The translations under genes and the position numbers were made by a program. Shown piece by piece: positions 4,286-6,826 of a DNA stretch of 51,696 bases. The stretch covers positions 1-51,696 of the IMG/VR virus record IMGVR_UViG_3300035670_000297; one strand, 5' to 3'. Under the pieces are notes generated by a model that worked only from the letters and a program-made list of their open reading frames with translations, did no database searches and was not told where the DNA came from. Source of the DNA: a virus. Taxonomy: Duplodnaviria; Caudoviricetes. Each line of letters opens with the position of its first letter. Position 1 is the first letter of the stretch.

Positions 4286-4494
4286 CCCGCATTGCCGACT
4301 GCATTGACATCCTCACCAAAGCCGGATGGATCTACGAAGGCAGCACCAAGATCGAGGGCATCCGCTGCTACATCATGCGCAGGCGCAGCGATGGTGACCC
4401 TGCCGTCCAACAAGGCGTCATCTACTTCACTACCTACGGACTGCGACGTGAAGCAGAGAAGGAACTCAGCAAGCATGAAACTCATTTCGCTTGA
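4282..4494 (+). CDS. Hypothetical protein, 70 aa
   Basis: AAGGAG RBS, ATGA overlap. Confidence 0.75.
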   Translation: MTRIADCIDILTKAGWIYEGSTKIEGIRCYIMRRRSDGDPAVQQGVIYFTTYGLRREAEKELSKHETHFA

Positions 4495-6826
4495 CATCGA
4501 GACCTACGGTGCATGCACCCATACCCACGATGGACGACCGCTCCCCACCCAGACGGTCTTCCATCCAGCGCGCGCCCTCCATACGGACGCGGTGTCCCCC
4601 CAGGACATGGTGCTCTCAGTCAGCGTGACCACCGAAGCAGGCAGTTGCCCATGTGGCAAGCGGCGTGGTCAACCTGAGTTCTCCCCATGCTGCACAATGG
4701 TCATGTACCCCCACTCACACATGATCCACATCCGCAAGTGGATTGAGTGGGCGACCGACATCCTCGGCATGAACCTGCCCTTCGACCTGCAGTTCCTCCG
4801 CCACTACTCACCCGGCCTGCGCCTCGCCCTCCATGGCAGGCACACCCTGCACGATCTCTCGATCCTCAACTACTTGCACTCCGAGCTGCGCCCCGAGCGT
4901 TCGCTCAAGTCCCTCGGCCCCGTGCTCGGCACCCACGCCTACGACCGCACCATCAAGGATGGGAAGTTCAAGTCCCCCCACGATCCGCAGTTCATTGCAT
5001 ACGCAGCACAGGACACACACAACACCATGCTTGCTGCGCGTGAACTGAGGCGACGCATCTACGCCGACTGGCCCGACTCCGGGAAGCTGAGCCCAGAGGC
5101 GGTCAGGCATTACTCCTCCCTCATCTGGACCGTGGTCACCATGGCCGAGGCCGGCATCCCCATGTCCCGCCCCATGCTCGAGACCCGACAAGCCCTGCTG
5201 CAGAGGAAGGCCGACCTCGCCATCGCCCAAGCCGGGCGCCTTGGCCTGCTGCTCGAGGGCACCGGCTCCTCGAAAAGCAAGGAGGCTTTCCTAGATGTGA
5301 CAATAAGTAAACTCGCAGCTCTAGGTGTTGACATTTTATCACACCCCCTTACCCAGTTCACGGAGAAGACGCGTCGTCTCTCCTGGTCAGATGGCAACCG
5401 CCAACTCATTGCTGCTCACCTACCCGCTGACTCGCCCGAGGCTCGTGGCCTTTGGCTGGCCGGCATTCACTCACGCGCCCAGAAGCAGCTCTCCTCTTAC
5501 CTCTACCCCCTACTCCACGGCAGGCGCAACAAGCCGGAGGACAAGGGAGATACGGTAATCCCATGGACGAACACGAAGAACCCAAGTTCCACATCAACGT
5601 CACCTTTGAAACCCAGTTGGACAAAGAGTCCTACCGGGTCACACTCCCCCTCGACGACCTCGCAGAAAGAGTCGTCTCTCTCCACCGACCCTACCTGCTT
5701 GACAAGAACCTGCTCATGCAGGCGATTGCATTCACGGTCATCAGCATGCTCCAGCAAAACGAAGACGACTACATCAGGGAGCGAACGGGCGCCGTCGTGC
5801 TGCGAGCAGAAACCCTGCGACTCGCCAAGCACATGCAGATCATCGTTGACTCCTTCGCAGATGGAATCGAGATCAAGCACACCAGCAAGCTCATCGAGAT
5901 CTCGGACGAAGAAGAGAACGAGGACGACGGAGCCTAAGGCAACGGGCGCCGCCTACCCCGTGTGGTTCATCGTGCCCTCCGCATCCAAGGATGCATCGGG
6001 TGACGAGGGTGGCACCATCCAAGCTCGCATCACCTGCAAGCGTCCTTCGGCCCAGACCTTCCCCCCTGAGATCAAGCAGTGCATCCAATCCAGGTGGGTG
6101 GGGGGACGCATCATCTCGATGGATCTCTCGCAGATCGAGCTTCGGATGGCAGCCCTCTGCTCTGGTGACCCCAGCCTGCTGGCCGCCTTCAACACAGGGC
6201 TGGACCTCCACACCCACCGGGCAGTCCAGCTGTTCGGCCAAGACTCCATCACTCGACCCACCTTCAAGAAGCGTGAGCGGCAGGTGGGCAAGACCATGAA
6301 CTTCGCCGACCTCTTCCTGGCTTCCCCCCAGCGAATGAGGATGTCGGTGCACGAGATGACTGGTGAGCTGATGCCCCTATCCTTCTTCGAGGAAGTGGCC
6401 CGTTCGCGCCCGGATGCGCGTCCCGGTCTCCACAGGTGGCAGCAGTCTCTCATCAGTCGGGTAGCCACGGACGGCTACCTCCTTTTGCCTATCCTTGGTC
6501 AGTCCCGCACATTCGTGGGGGGACCATCAGCCCACCTCAATGAGGTGGTCAACTTCCCCATCCAAACCCAGGCCAGCAACACCCTGATCCAGATCCAGAG
6601 CCGGCTGCTCGAGTACCTGCCCAAGCTCTACACCCAGGGACCCAGGCCCCTGATGTTCCTGCAGGTATACGACGCCATCTACTTCGATGTCCCCCCACAG
6701 TACGAAGACTCCTTGAAGGCTGCGGTCCAGCAGGCGGTGTTGGATGTCGCCTCTCCCTCCGGATACTGGGGCAGGCTGCAGGAGTATTACGGAAACCAGG
6801 TTCCCTTGGAGTACGAGATCGACTAG
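4475..6826 (+). CDS. polA: Family A DNA polymerase with 3'-5' exonuclease and a ~125-codon insertion
   Basis: ExoI LDIETYG, ExoII NLPFDL, ExoIII YAAQD; motif A DLSQIELR; motif B RQVGKTMNF; NFPIQ; motif C QVYD. Confidence 0.92.
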   Translation: MKLISLDIETYGACTHTHDGRPLPTQTVFHPARALHTDAVSPQDMVLSVSVTTEAGSCPCGKRRGQPEFSPCCTMVMYPHSHMIHIRKWIEWATDILGMNLPFDLQFLRHYSPGLRLALHGRHTLHDLSILNYLHSELRPERSLKSLGPVLGTHAYDRTIKDGKFKSPHDPQFIAYAAQDTHNTMLAARELRRRIYADWPDSGKLSPEAVRHYSSLIWTVVTMAEAGIPMSRPMLETRQALLQRKADLAIAQAGRLGLLLEGTGSSKSKEAFLDVTISKLAALGVDILSHPLTQFTEKTRRLSWSDGNRQLIAAHLPADSPEARGLWLAGIHSRAQKQLSSYLYPLLHGRRNKPEDKGDTVIPWTNTKNPSSTSTSPLKPSWTKSPTGSHSPSTTSQKESSLSTDPTCLTRTCSCRRLHSRSSACSSKTKTTTSGSERAPSCCEQKPCDSPSTCRSSLTPSQMESRSSTPASSSRSRTKKRTRTTEPKATGAAYPVWFIVPSASKDASGDEGGTIQARITCKRPSAQTFPPEIKQCIQSRWVGGRIISMDLSQIELRMAALCSGDPSLLAAFNTGLDLHTHRAVQLFGQDSITRPTFKKRERQVGKTMNFADLFLASPQRMRMSVHEMTGELMPLSFFEEVARSRPDARPGLHRWQQSLISRVATDGYLLLPILGQSRTFVGGPSAHLNEVVNFPIQTQASNTLIQIQSRLLEYLPKLYTQGPRPLMFLQVYDAIYFDVPPQYEDSLKAAVQQAVLDVASPSGYWGRLQEYYGNQVPLEYEID
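5296..5343. promoter_or_regulatory. AT-rich imperfect inverted repeat with TTGACA inside polA
   Basis: TGTGACAATAAGTAAAC-N14-GTTGACATTTTATCACA (13/17 match) over a run of rare codons. Confidence 0.4.
5563..5937 (+). CDS. Nested out-of-frame gene inside polA, acidic 124-aa protein
   Basis: AGGGAGA RBS, ATG and TAA; C/G-ending codons; protein-like sequence while the polA frame here is S/T/P/R-rich low-complexity sequence. Confidence 0.8.
   Translation: MDEHEEPKFHINVTFETQLDKESYRVTLPLDDLAERVVSLHRPYLLDKNLLMQAIAFTVISMLQQNEDDYIRERTGAVVLRAETLRLAKHMQIIVDSFADGIEIKHTSKLIEISDEEENEDDGA

What the first reader, a model, noticed from the sequence alone, without database searches (positions are those of the whole stretch)
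5541..5960. A complete gene nested out-of-frame inside the DNA polymerase gene
Seen: between the thumb end (KQLSSYLYPLL) and the palm start (GAAYPVWF..GGTIQARIT), PolA carries about 125 extra codons of S/T/P/R low-complexity sequence. These coincide almost exactly with a -1 frame ORF (5563-5937) that has an AGGGAGA RBS, ATG, TAA, the phage's normal C/G-ending codons and a plausible helical protein with an acidic tail (DEEENEDDGA). The polA frame has no stop across it: none of the ten NTG codons of the inner gene is followed by A. Known: this linker is normally short in family A polymerases, and usual insertions are inteins or introns; neither signature is present. Inference: either an intact gene inserted into polA and is tolerated as a disordered loop (dual coding), or the insert is skipped by ribosomal bypass or RNA processing (matching in-frame ACG codons at 5552 and 5942 would give KGDT-GAAYP). 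The acidic product might be a polymerase cofactor or DNA mimic.
Basis: partly seen in the sequence, partly recalled or inferred. Interest (0 to 1): 0.9.

Follow-up and report, generated by a model that had tools for sequence, protein, structure and literature searches.

The report
Gene nested out-of-frame inside phage polA
A complete aquatic phage genome carries a 124-codon gene of unknown function inside its DNA polymerase gene, in a different reading frame, and the sequence appears to be kept readable in both frames, so the polymerase gains a floppy 125-residue loop.

Summary
polA (4475-6826, 783 aa) has about 125 extra codons (5564-5938) that its 665-aa relatives lack. An ATG..TAA ORF (5563-5937) fills them in the +2 (-1) frame.

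Comparative data favour dual coding.
- The polA frame has no stop across the insert in any of the 9 carrier loci with DNA, nor in two contigs from other studies, which also show no indels there.
- Given the inner protein and polA-core codon usage, an open polA frame is unlikely: P=0.006 here, 0.016 in a relative.
- Stop-prone Leu/Val/Ile codons are depleted in nested ORFs (18/174 vs 331/964).
- The inner frame has genome-like codon usage and the better-conserved protein. Recent substitutions fall mostly on its third codon position.
- AlphaFold2 models the polA-frame insert as disordered (pLDDT about 25).

There is no intron or intein signature, and the evidence does not support bypass.

All detectable homologues of the inner protein are themselves nested in this polA clade. 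Its function is unknown.

Unrelated nested ORFs sit at other polA loop sites in related phages. The closest published analogue is the out-of-frame HNH "ShiLan domain" in actinophage methylases. Translation of either frame is untested.

The parts
4475..6826 (+). polA: family A DNA polymerase with an N-terminal 3'-5' exonuclease-like domain, 783 aa, read through the insert without a stop
   Evidence: Pfam PF00476 E=2e-21 on residues 514-755. PHROG 17 E=8e-46. PDB profile hits to Taq and Klenow from residue about 484 onward. AF2 pTM 0.73.
5564..5938 (+). Insert as read in the polA frame: PolA residues about 364-488, an S/T/P/R-rich, poorly conserved loop predicted to be disordered, lying between the thumb end and the first palm strand
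   Evidence: Alignment A1. Insert detection. pLDDT below 50 for residues 366-488, block means 23-28. STPR fraction 0.64. Off-frame-like codon usage, mean ln RSCU -0.10.
5563..5937 (+). Nested ORF, 124 aa plus TAA, frame +2 (-1) relative to polA. Predicted beta-hairpin plus three helices plus a disordered acidic tail. No known family.
   Evidence: Codon usage ln RSCU 0.196, against 0.177 for polA's own frame. Homologues P0122-P0130, all nested. AF2 pLDDT 68.8. No Pfam, PHROG or Foldseek match.
5544..5550 (+). Shine-Dalgarno-like AGGGAGA, 12-13 nt upstream of the inner ATG, formed by polA codons for D-K-G-D
   Evidence: Sequence. AAAGGAGA in L001 and the weaker AAGGGCGA in L078 at the same place. 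No notable RNA structure around the start, z=0.13.
5561..5566 (+). CCATGG: Pro-Trp in the polA frame and the inner ATG in the +2 frame. The Trp occurs only in insert-bearing polymerases.
   Evidence: IPW in P0002-P0008, P0033 and L002, against LPLPH / IPSGF / IP-VTGT in insert-less relatives.

Best explanation
This is a dual-coding segment. One stretch of DNA (5563-5938) is read in two frames from the polA mRNA.

Ribosomes that start at 4475 read straight through and make a full-length 783-aa family A polymerase. Residues about 364-488 are then an unstructured S/T/P/R-rich surface loop at the thumb-palm junction, a site that also accepts 41-52-aa in-frame inserts in other clades.

Ribosomes that start at the internal ATG 5563 make a separate 124-aa protein: a beta-hairpin, three helices and an acidic tail.

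The inner frame carries the protein-level constraint. The polA frame is constrained only to stay open and hydrophilic. This is achieved by biased synonymous codon choice in the inner gene: C-ending codons turn NTC into Ser, NAC into Thr and NCC into Pro in the polA frame, and NTA and NTG-A are avoided.

The arrangement is inherited vertically within one clade of aquatic phages, and the nested protein evolves much faster than the polymerase core.

Shown here: sequence anatomy, conservation, codon statistics and the structure predictions.

Inferred: translation of both products, tolerance of the loop by the enzyme, and internal initiation.

Unknown: the function of the nested protein. My guess is a fast-evolving accessory factor expressed together with the replication genes.
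For: (1) The polA frame stays open.
- All 9 site-D carrier loci with DNA (window, L001, L002, L003, L078, L079, L080, L082, L083) have no polA-frame stop in the insert.
- Of the 138 loci that hold the downstream anchor, none has polA interrupted by a stop. All truncations are contig ends.
- The retrieval was by tblastn, so it did not depend on ORF calls.

(2) Resampling synonymous codons of the inner protein from polA-core usage leaves the polA frame open in 0.006 of samples (window), 0.016 (L001) and 0.32 (L002), and in 0.02-0.05 at site B. The third frame is closed in every case.

(3) Leu/Val/Ile codons ending in A or G number 18 of 174 in 7 nested ORFs, against 331 of 964 in the polA cores. 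Fisher p=1.5e-11.

(4) Inner-frame coding signals.
- Mean ln RSCU is 0.196 in the inner frame and -0.10 in the polA frame of the insert. polA's own frame elsewhere scores 0.177.
- BLASTP between inner proteins gives 8e-9, 3e-6 and 2e-19. The same DNA read in the polA frame gives 9.5, 0.045 and 0.58.
- BLOSUM z-scores are higher for the inner frame in 3 of 3 site-D pairs, even when the alignment is built on the polA-frame peptides (6.4 vs 4.9 on average; 8.1-12.6 vs 2.6-6.2 when aligned on the inner frame).
- Segregating changes among close relatives by inner codon position 1/2/3 are 11/8/25, chi-square p=0.0036 (sites D and B pooled, site D alone 3/2/8).
- The 12 variant places listed inside the ORF in contigs of other studies fall 4/2/6 (that table was truncated).

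(5) The ATG sits at the first codon of the insert and the stop within its last codons in the window clade, L002 and site B.

(6) Independent assemblies. X3 has an identical 515-nt contig covering 5472-5986. X5 and X8, from other studies, each have a single contig across the whole insert with substitutions only and no indel between 5340 and 6300.

(7) AF2. The PolA flanks have pLDDT 85-93 and residues 366-488 about 25. The inner protein core has pLDDT 70-85.

(8) The polymerase core is under strong purifying selection: 96% identity between the window and P0003 over the kept columns.
Against: There is no expression data of any kind. No RNA run was listed for this stretch.

An S/T/P/A-rich host frame has C at codon position 2, and this by itself keeps the +2 frame free of stops. 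Part of the 'ORF' signal could therefore be a by-product of a Ser/Thr-rich linker.

Raw amino-acid identity is about equal in the two frames (0.20-0.36 inner vs 0.23-0.37 polA frame). At high divergence inner position 1 varies as much as position 3.

The SD-like motif is 12-13 nt from the ATG and is encoded by conserved polA residues.

The polymorphism counts for site D alone are small (3/2/8 and 4/2/6).

The inner protein has no homologue outside this nested position and no recognisable fold. Its AF2 model is only moderate (pLDDT 68.8, 7 sequences), and the ESM Atlas single-sequence model is poor (pLDDT 0.42).

At the analogous site C in relatives the alternative frame is not better conserved than the polA frame (5 of 15 pairs). 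Not every such ORF need be a gene.
Confidence: 0.68

Rival explanations
1. By-product ORF. The insert is simply a Ser/Thr/Pro-rich flexible linker that expanded inside polA. The +2 frame is open only because codons with C at position 2 cannot form stops in that frame. No 124-aa protein is made.
For: The mechanical link between S/T/P/A codons and an open, C3-rich +2 frame follows from the genetic code. Amino-acid identity is equal in both frames. There is no homologue outside the nested position. No family or fold match was found. SD spacing is poor. At site C of relatives, a TM-like +2 ORF is not better conserved than the Ser-rich polA frame.
Against: The polA frame of the insert has off-frame-like codon usage and GC3 of 0.62, while the inner frame has gene-like usage and GC3 of 0.77. 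Recent substitutions concentrate on inner position 3, which is polA position 2 and always non-synonymous in polA. Composition-corrected conservation is higher in the inner frame in 3 of 3 pairs under either alignment. The ATG (CCATGG, with a Trp found only in carriers) and the stop coincide with the insert borders in three separate lineages. 48% of the inner codons do not end in C.
Confidence: 0.17
2. Selfish insertion element of the ShiLan type. The nested ORF is, or was, a mobile gene, for example a new kind of homing endonuclease or DNA-binding protein. It invaded a conserved site of an essential gene and persists because its off-frame reading is harmless.
For: There is a published precedent with the same anatomy: third frame, no host-frame stop, stop in the last bases, and a poorly predicted structure for the in-frame reading (PMC11855218; abstract, Introduction, Results 3.5-3.6 and Discussion read). 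The insert lies between two highly conserved polA motifs. Site D was occupied at least three times on the polA tree, and unrelated nested ORFs occupy two or three other polA sites.
Against: No nuclease or DNA-binding family or fold matches any of 11 nested proteins tested. Carriers of the window's family form one clade with support 100, and the inner proteins diverge in step with polA, which indicates vertical inheritance rather than a disjunct distribution. No flanking direct repeats exceed chance. No free-standing copy was found anywhere.
Confidence: 0.1
3. The insert is removed from the polymerase, by translational bypass between the ACG codons at 5552 and 5942, by RNA splicing or by protein splicing, giving a PolA of about 655 aa.
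For: Matching in-frame Thr codons flank the insert in the window (ACG/ACG) and L078 (ACG/ACG), and synonymous ones in L001 (ACT/ACC).
Against: No group I or II intron or other Rfam family reaches E<=1 in 5000-6500; the two hits below E=10 are weak matches to unrelated families on the opposite strand. Pfam finds only DNA_pol_A on PolA, no Hint or intein. There is no stop after the putative take-off codon, and the gap of 387 nt compares with 50 nt in T4 gene 60 (recalled). P0033 (SVLIPW) and L002 (SSIIPW) lack the take-off Thr. Selection for an open frame, indels only in multiples of three (3, 9) and depletion of stop-prone codons would be unnecessary if the segment were skipped. There is no special RNA structure at the junction.
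Confidence: 0.03
4. Assembly artefact (compensating indels) or a decaying polA pseudogene.
For: None found.
Against: The same frame relation is seen in contigs of four runs from four studies, without indels in the insert, and in 8 further loci from other metagenomes. The polA core is highly conserved.
Confidence: 0.01

Closest known systems
[quoted passage not shown]
   Same: The insertion is absent from close homologues of the host gene. The host frame runs through it without a stop. The hidden ORF is in the third frame, begins near the 5' border and ends with a stop in the last bases. The in-frame reading has no family assignment and a poorly predicted structure. No intron or intein signature was found. 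Translation is untested in both cases.
   Different: The host gene here is the replicative polymerase, whereas the authors say that methylase is dispensable. The nested protein is not an HNH or any recognisable nuclease and has no free-standing relatives. The distribution is clade-wide and vertical rather than disjunct. The start codon is ATG rather than GTG. Here there is also quantitative evidence of synonymous-site constraint that keeps the host frame open.
Classical nested or overprinted phage genes (lambda Rz/Rz1; phiX174 A/B and D/E), recalled; reviewed in PMC8227390 (search listing only)
   Same: A complete gene lies in an alternative frame inside another gene on the same strand, with both frames constrained.
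   Different: In those pairs, as I recall them, the outer gene's overlapped part is an ordinary functional part of the protein. Here the overlapped part of the outer gene is an extra, dispensable-looking low-complexity loop that exists only where the nested gene exists, and the nested frame looks like the dominant coding frame.
Inteins and intron-borne homing endonucleases in phage polymerase genes (general knowledge, recalled)
   Same: Extra DNA at a conserved site of a replication gene, absent from near relatives.
   Different: There are no splicing blocks, no Hint domain and no intron RNA family. The extra residues are most likely retained in the protein.
Thioredoxin-binding loop of T7 DNA polymerase (recalled)
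   Same: A lineage-specific flexible insertion in the thumb region of a phage family A polymerase that the enzyme tolerates.
   Different: The T7 loop is an in-frame functional segment with no nested gene. Any partner-binding role of the loop here is pure speculation.

Membership tests
Family A DNA polymerase (host gene) | Match to the Pfam DNA_pol_A model above its cutoff, and homology to solved Pol I structures over palm and fingers | tested here: met
   PF00476 scores 76.8 bits against a cutoff of 34.3. Taq and Klenow match at E about 1e-17 over profile positions 484-729.
ShiLan-type out-of-frame insertion element | Insert absent from close homologues of the host gene, and host frame free of stops across it | tested here: met
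   The 665-666-aa relatives lack it. No stop occurs in any of the 9 carrier loci.
ShiLan-type out-of-frame insertion element | Hidden ORF in the third frame, starting near the 5' border, with its stop in the last bases of the insert | tested here: met
   Frame +2. The ATG overlaps the first insert codon (CCATGG). The TAA lies 1 nt from the 3' border.
ShiLan-type out-of-frame insertion element | Hidden ORF encodes an HNH or other homing endonuclease | tested here: not met
   No Pfam or PHROG family at E<=0.01. No Foldseek hit with E<0.06 in PDB or BFVD.
ShiLan-type out-of-frame insertion element | Disjunct, homing-like distribution among closely related host genes | tested here: not met
   The 8 carriers of the window's family form one clade with support 100. 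The label needs 3 changes on the whole tree, but these involve distant lineages whose inner ORFs are unrelated or unavailable.
Intein | In-frame Hint/splicing blocks, with a nucleophile at both junctions | tested here: not met
   Pfam finds only DNA_pol_A on the 783-aa protein. The polA-frame insert is a low-complexity S/T/P/R sequence.
Group I / group II intron | Match to an intron RNA family or a conserved catalytic-core structure | tested here: not met
   The Rfam E-value scan of 5000-6500 gave only two weak hits to unrelated families (E=3 and 5.3) on the opposite strand.
Programmed translational bypass (T4 gene 60 type) | Matched take-off and landing codons, a stop right after take-off, and a short unconstrained coding gap | tested here: not met
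   Matched ACG codons exist here and in L078, but not in P0033 or L002. There is no stop after take-off. The gap is 387 nt and is under frame-preserving constraint.
Dual-coding (overprinted) gene pair | Evolutionary constraint detectable in both frames of the same DNA | tested here: met
   polA frame: stop avoidance. Inner frame: codon usage, excess of third-position substitutions and composition-corrected conservation.
Dual-coding (overprinted) gene pair | Both products actually translated | not testable with these tools
   No RNA run was listed. No proteomics is available.

The most novel reading that the evidence does not exclude
This family of aquatic-phage DNA polymerases is a recurrent host for nested genes. 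At up to four loop sites, in different clades, unrelated small ORFan genes are encoded in the -1 frame of polA, and the polymerase carries their off-frame translations as disordered S/T-rich loops. If so, an essential replication enzyme serves as a place where new phage genes arise or are kept. The nested genes are expressed with replication and cannot be lost without disrupting polA. The nested proteins, which evolve far faster than the polymerase, would be accessory or host-interaction factors.
Probability: 0.3. Interest if true: 0.85.

Novelty: new variant of a known kind. Interest (0 to 1): 0.68.

Why it matters
If both frames are translated, an essential replicative polymerase tolerates 90-125-residue off-frame loops so that a second gene can sit inside it.

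The genetic code makes this cheap. C-ending codons of the inner gene automatically give Ser, Thr or Pro in the host frame.

Routine annotation hides such genes, because callers keep only the long ORF. Here the inner ORF was called mainly on short contigs (longest 905-2671 nt for 8 of the 9 hits).

It extends the recently described 'hidden out-of-frame insertion' phenomenon from a dispensable methylase with an HNH passenger to an essential enzyme with ORFan passengers at several sites.

It also offers a tractable system for studying how overlapping genes originate and are maintained, and how much disordered insertion a polymerase can bear.

Tried and rejected
Homologue searches that found nothing outside the nested family.
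- Close DNA or protein relatives among 50,697 deposited phages: blastn of polA gave no match. tblastn of the inner protein gave no match at E<=1. tblastn of PolA gave only 24-29% identity over the C-terminal third.
- Pattern scans for the inner protein and its relatives P0123 and P0124 in viral contigs and genome contigs found nothing.
- ESM Atlas gave no informative neighbour: scores 0.79, TM<=0.44.
- Foldseek against PDB and BFVD gave no hit with E<0.06.

Complex prediction, with PolA 1-362 plus PolA 488-783 plus the inner protein as partner, returned 'no answer' (score 0.00, controls not run). This is no evidence either way.

The look-up of sequencing runs listed no RNA holder. This is no evidence on expression.

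Flanking target-site duplication. A 13-nt imperfect repeat (5537-5549 / 5920-5932, 85%) flanks the insert. An equal or better 12-mer match arose in 29 of 200 shuffles, and nothing comparable is present in L001, L078 or L002. I rejected it as evidence of transposition.

A -1 frameshift fusion of the PolA N-part to the inner protein was considered. The +2 frame is open upstream to 5452 in the window, but L001, L079, L080 and L082 have a stop 8 codons before the ATG. Rejected.

Split polA was considered. No locus shows a stop that separates N and C parts.

Raw identity per frame did not discriminate between the frames. Only composition-corrected measures did.

Supplementary files of papers were not consulted; those of PMC11855218 and its GitHub material might list further out-of-frame insertions, possibly in polymerases.

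Literature. Three searches were run: 5 terms on overlapping, out-of-frame and nested genes with DNA polymerase and bacteriophage; 'ShiLan domain', 2 papers; embedded gene, DNA polymerase I, phage, alternative reading frame, overprinting. Judged from the listed titles and abstract openings, none describes a gene nested in a phage polA.
Full report
WHAT IS THERE. The window is a complete 51,696-bp virus record with direct terminal repeats. On the + strand one frame is open from 4292 to 6826; from ATG 4475 it encodes a 783-aa protein. Pfam recognises family A DNA polymerase on residues 514-755 (E=2e-21), and PHROG 17 'DNA polymerase' matches at 8e-46. A profile of the family matches Taq and Klenow from about residue 484 to 729. 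Inside this gene, in frame +2 (-1), lies an ORF from ATG 5563 to TAA 5935-5937 (124 aa).

There are ten NTG codons in the inner ORF, none followed by A, and no NTA codon. The inner protein ends in an acidic tail. In-frame ACG codons stand at 5552 and 5942. The 'RBS' AGGGAGA is real but sits 12-13 nt from the ATG and is built from polA's conserved D-K-G-D codons, so I give it little weight.

THE INSERT IS LINEAGE-SPECIFIC. A search of 5.8 billion proteins returned 248 relatives, of which 120 were listed. In an alignment of 14 of them, the query, P0003-P0008 (68-88% overall identity) and the distant P0033 carry about 90-135 extra residues between '..RRNKPEDKGDTVIP' and 'ATGAAYPVW..'. The 665-688-aa relatives have a short linker there. 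In the carriers the polA-frame insert is S/T/P-rich and barely alignable, while both flanks are nearly invariant. My mapping of this site to the turn before the first palm strand of Taq or Klenow rests plus recalled Pol I sequence, and is an inference.

DNA OF RELATIVES. tblastn-confirmed scans gave 77 viral and 78 metagenome loci. Nine of them carry a site-D insert with DNA: the window, L001, L002, L003, L078, L079, L080, L082 and L083. In all nine the polA frame has no stop in the insert. In the eight that reach the insert's 5' border, an ORF in the same +2 frame begins with an ATG embedded in CCATGG (Pro-Trp in polA). It ends with a stop at or within a few bases of the 3' border of the insert, or at the contig end in L079. 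L083 starts inside the insert.

The Trp is found only in insert-bearing polymerases. None of the 138 loci that hold the downstream polA anchor has the gene interrupted by a stop; every truncation is a contig end. The 'always open' result is therefore not produced by my filters or by gene callers.

IS IT AN ASSEMBLY ERROR? No. Contigs from four runs of four studies were laid on 5200-6300. X3 has an identical 515-nt contig over 5472-5986. X5 and X8 each have one contig across the entire insert with substitutions only. All listed indels lie at 5296-5339, upstream of the insert.

IS THE polA FRAME OPEN BY CHANCE? I kept the inner protein sequence and redrew its codons from the codon usage of the same phage's polA core. 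The polA frame then stays open in 0.006 of 5,000 samples for the window, 0.016 for L001 and 0.32 for L002. The third frame is closed in every observed case.

The mechanism is visible in codon choice. Leu/Val/Ile codons ending in A or G, the only ones that can create TAA, TAG or TGA in the polA frame, number 18 of 174 in seven nested ORFs and 331 of 964 in the polA cores (Fisher p=1.5e-11). Indels between close relatives are multiples of three (3 and 9 nt). These constraints make sense only if ribosomes read the polA frame through the insert. That is the main argument against bypass or splicing.

IS THE INNER FRAME A GENE OR A BY-PRODUCT? This needed care. A host frame rich in Ser, Thr, Pro and Ala has C at codon position 2, which automatically keeps the +2 frame free of stops and rich in C-ending codons. 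Raw amino-acid identity is about the same in both frames. Several independent measures nevertheless favour the inner frame.

(a) Codon usage. Mean ln RSCU relative to the genome's genes is 0.196 for the inner frame and -0.10 for the polA frame inside the insert. polA's own frame elsewhere gives 0.177, and its shifted frames give -0.04 and -0.10. GC3 is 0.77 in the inner frame and 0.62 in the polA frame.

(b) Among 18 nested same-strand ORFs of 70 aa or more in 17 large genes of this genome, only this one outscores its host frame.

(c) Composition-corrected similarity. BLASTP between inner proteins gives 8e-9, 3e-6 and 2e-19, while the same DNA read in the polA frame gives 9.5, 0.045 and 0.58. 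BLOSUM z-scores against shuffled columns are 8.1-12.6 for the inner frame and 2.6-6.2 for the polA frame. They remain higher in 3 of 3 pairs when the alignment is built on the polA-frame peptides instead.

(d) Among close relatives, where sites are unsaturated, segregating changes by inner codon position are 11/8/25 (p=0.0036). This pools site D (3/2/8) and site B. The 12 variant places listed within the ORF fall 4/2/6 by my count; that table omitted 33 places of the whole stretch. Inner position 3 is polA position 2, where every change alters the polA-frame residue.

(e) The ATG and the stop coincide with the insert borders.

I conclude that the inner frame carries protein-level constraint and the polA frame carries only 'stay open, stay hydrophilic' constraint. 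This is not proof of translation.

STRUCTURE. AlphaFold2 on alignment A1 gives a confident polymerase (pTM 0.73; flanks pLDDT 85-93). Residues 366-488 have pLDDT of about 25 and no secondary structure. On a 7-sequence alignment the inner protein is modelled at pLDDT 68.8. It has strands at 12-19 and 22-29, helices at 30-40, 48-63 and 69-99, and a disordered tail at 105-124. Neither PDB nor BFVD holds a similar fold; the best E-values are 0.2 and 0.06.

RELATIVES OF THE INNER PROTEIN. phmmer over 1.84 billion representatives found three. A profile search found nine, all 121-131 aa, and eight of the nine have a longest contig of 905-2671 nt. A codon-compatibility test checks whether one DNA can encode both a given inner protein in frame +2 and a given polymerase insert in frame 0. 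It shows that P0123 is nested in P0003 (126 of 126 steps), P0124 in P0005 (130 of 130) and P0129 in P0007 (123 of 123). P0126 and P0127 match close variants of P0006 and P0005 over 67 and 51 steps. No free-standing homologue was found, so 'a pre-existing gene was inserted' is not demonstrated.

EVOLUTION. On a FastTree tree of 105 polymerases with insert columns removed, the eight carriers of this family form one clade (support 100). P0033 and L002 are separate, so the carrier label needs three changes. Inner-protein identity to the window's falls in step with polA distance: 48% for P0003's passenger, 33% for P0005's, about 20% for L001 and L078. This indicates vertical inheritance. However, the window and P0003 are 96% identical over the polymerase core columns while their nested proteins are about 48% identical, so the passenger evolves far faster than its host.

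OTHER SITES. The same polA family shows further inserts.
- Site B (about residue 200): 8 loci with a 90-96-aa +2 ORF that fills the insert exactly. It is well conserved (BLASTP 1e-22 to 1e-32; z 11-16).
- Site A (about residue 63, inside a CxC..CC loop): 17 loci with +2 ORFs of 86-122 aa that run on into conserved polA. Support is equivocal (6 of 10 pairs).
- Site C (about residue 281): 10 loci with a TM-like +2 ORF under a Ser-rich linker. Here the alternative frame is not better conserved (5 of 15 pairs), so this one may be a by-product.

Another clade has ordinary in-frame 41-52-aa inserts at site D, with stops in both other frames. None of the ten nested proteins scanned matches Pfam (E<=0.01) or PHROGs.

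COMPARISON WITH WHAT IS KNOWN. The nearest published case is the 'ShiLan domain' (PMC11855218; I read the abstract, Introduction, Results 3.5-3.6 and Discussion). [quoted passage not shown] No intron or intein features were found, and the in-frame reading has a poor-confidence predicted structure. Its authors infer homing from a disjunct distribution and note that the methylase is dispensable.

The present case shares the anatomy but fails two defining features, an endonuclease passenger and a disjunct distribution, and the host gene is the replicative polymerase. Classical nested phage genes (Rz/Rz1, phiX174; recalled) differ in that the overlapped part of the outer gene is a normal part of that protein. 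Three literature searches listed no description of a gene nested in a phage polA, judged from titles and abstract openings.

VERDICT. Dual coding is the best reading (about 0.68). A by-product ORF is the main rival (about 0.17). A selfish ShiLan-like element is possible (about 0.1). Bypass or splicing is unlikely (about 0.03). An artefact is excluded for practical purposes. The function of the nested protein is unknown; the cofactor and DNA-mimic ideas have no support yet.

Noticed in passing
L021:1292-1561, L031:3732-4019, L103:3244-3522, L100:3229-3507 (also L035, L142, L143, L153): A second, unrelated nested gene lies at a different polA loop (about residue 200 in window numbering). It is a 90-96-aa ORF in frame +2 that fills an 88-93-residue S/T-rich insert exactly. 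It is conserved at 39-53% identity across clades (BLASTP 1e-22 to 1e-32), and the polA frame is open (P 0.02-0.05 by resampling).
   Followed up: partly
L115:2671-2964, L042:3171-3428, L047:3177-3497, L061:3156-3521, L031:3174-3443, L103:2674-2955 and others (17 loci): A third insertion site (about residue 63) lies inside a CxC...CC loop of the exonuclease domain. It carries +2-frame ORFs of 86-122 aa that start in the insert and run about 150 nt into conserved polA, ending at a stop within the codons for the PFD motif. Evidence that they are coding is equivocal (inner frame better conserved in 6 of 10 pairs).
   Followed up: partly
L115:3490-3693 and the same site in L043, L044, L047, L114, L116, L129, L135, L042, L125: A fourth site (about residue 281) has a Ser-rich 35-39-residue linker whose +2 frame reads as a small transmembrane-like protein. 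Here the alternative frame is not better conserved than the polA frame (5 of 15 pairs). It may simply be the NTC/TCN mirror image of a poly-Ser linker, which is a warning against over-reading such ORFs.
   Followed up: partly
L004, L058-L062, L066, L075, L076, L081, L120, L127-L138 (site D): A distant polA clade has ordinary in-frame inserts of 41-52 residues at the same thumb-palm site, with a conserved P-[AS]-[DE]-R-[VI]-D-A motif and stops in both other frames. The site tolerates insertions generally.
   Followed up: no
window 5563-5937 versus P0123 (nested in P0003): The polymerase core is 96% identical between the window and P0003, but their nested proteins are only about 48% identical. 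The passenger evolves far faster than its host gene, through weak constraint, diversifying selection or allele exchange.
   Followed up: partly
window 5296-5339: Contigs from other studies (X5, X10) show a cluster of small compensating indels and substitutions in the polA thumb region upstream of the insert. This is a hypervariable patch in an otherwise conserved gene.
   Followed up: no
window 6665-6680 (PolA residues 732-734) and residues about 606-615: By eye, in the alignment to Taq, the family has Y-D-A where Pol I has H-D-E in motif C. It also has Phe where Taq has the motif B Tyr (KTMNFADLF). Both are invariant or nearly so across 14 relatives, so this is a divergent polymerase lineage.
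   Followed up: no
window 5537-5549 and 5920-5932: An imperfect 13-nt direct repeat (85%) brackets the insert. The left copy reads E-D-K-G in the polA frame and the right copy reads E-D-D-G in the inner frame. It is not significant against shuffles (29 of 200) and is absent from relatives.
   Followed up: yes
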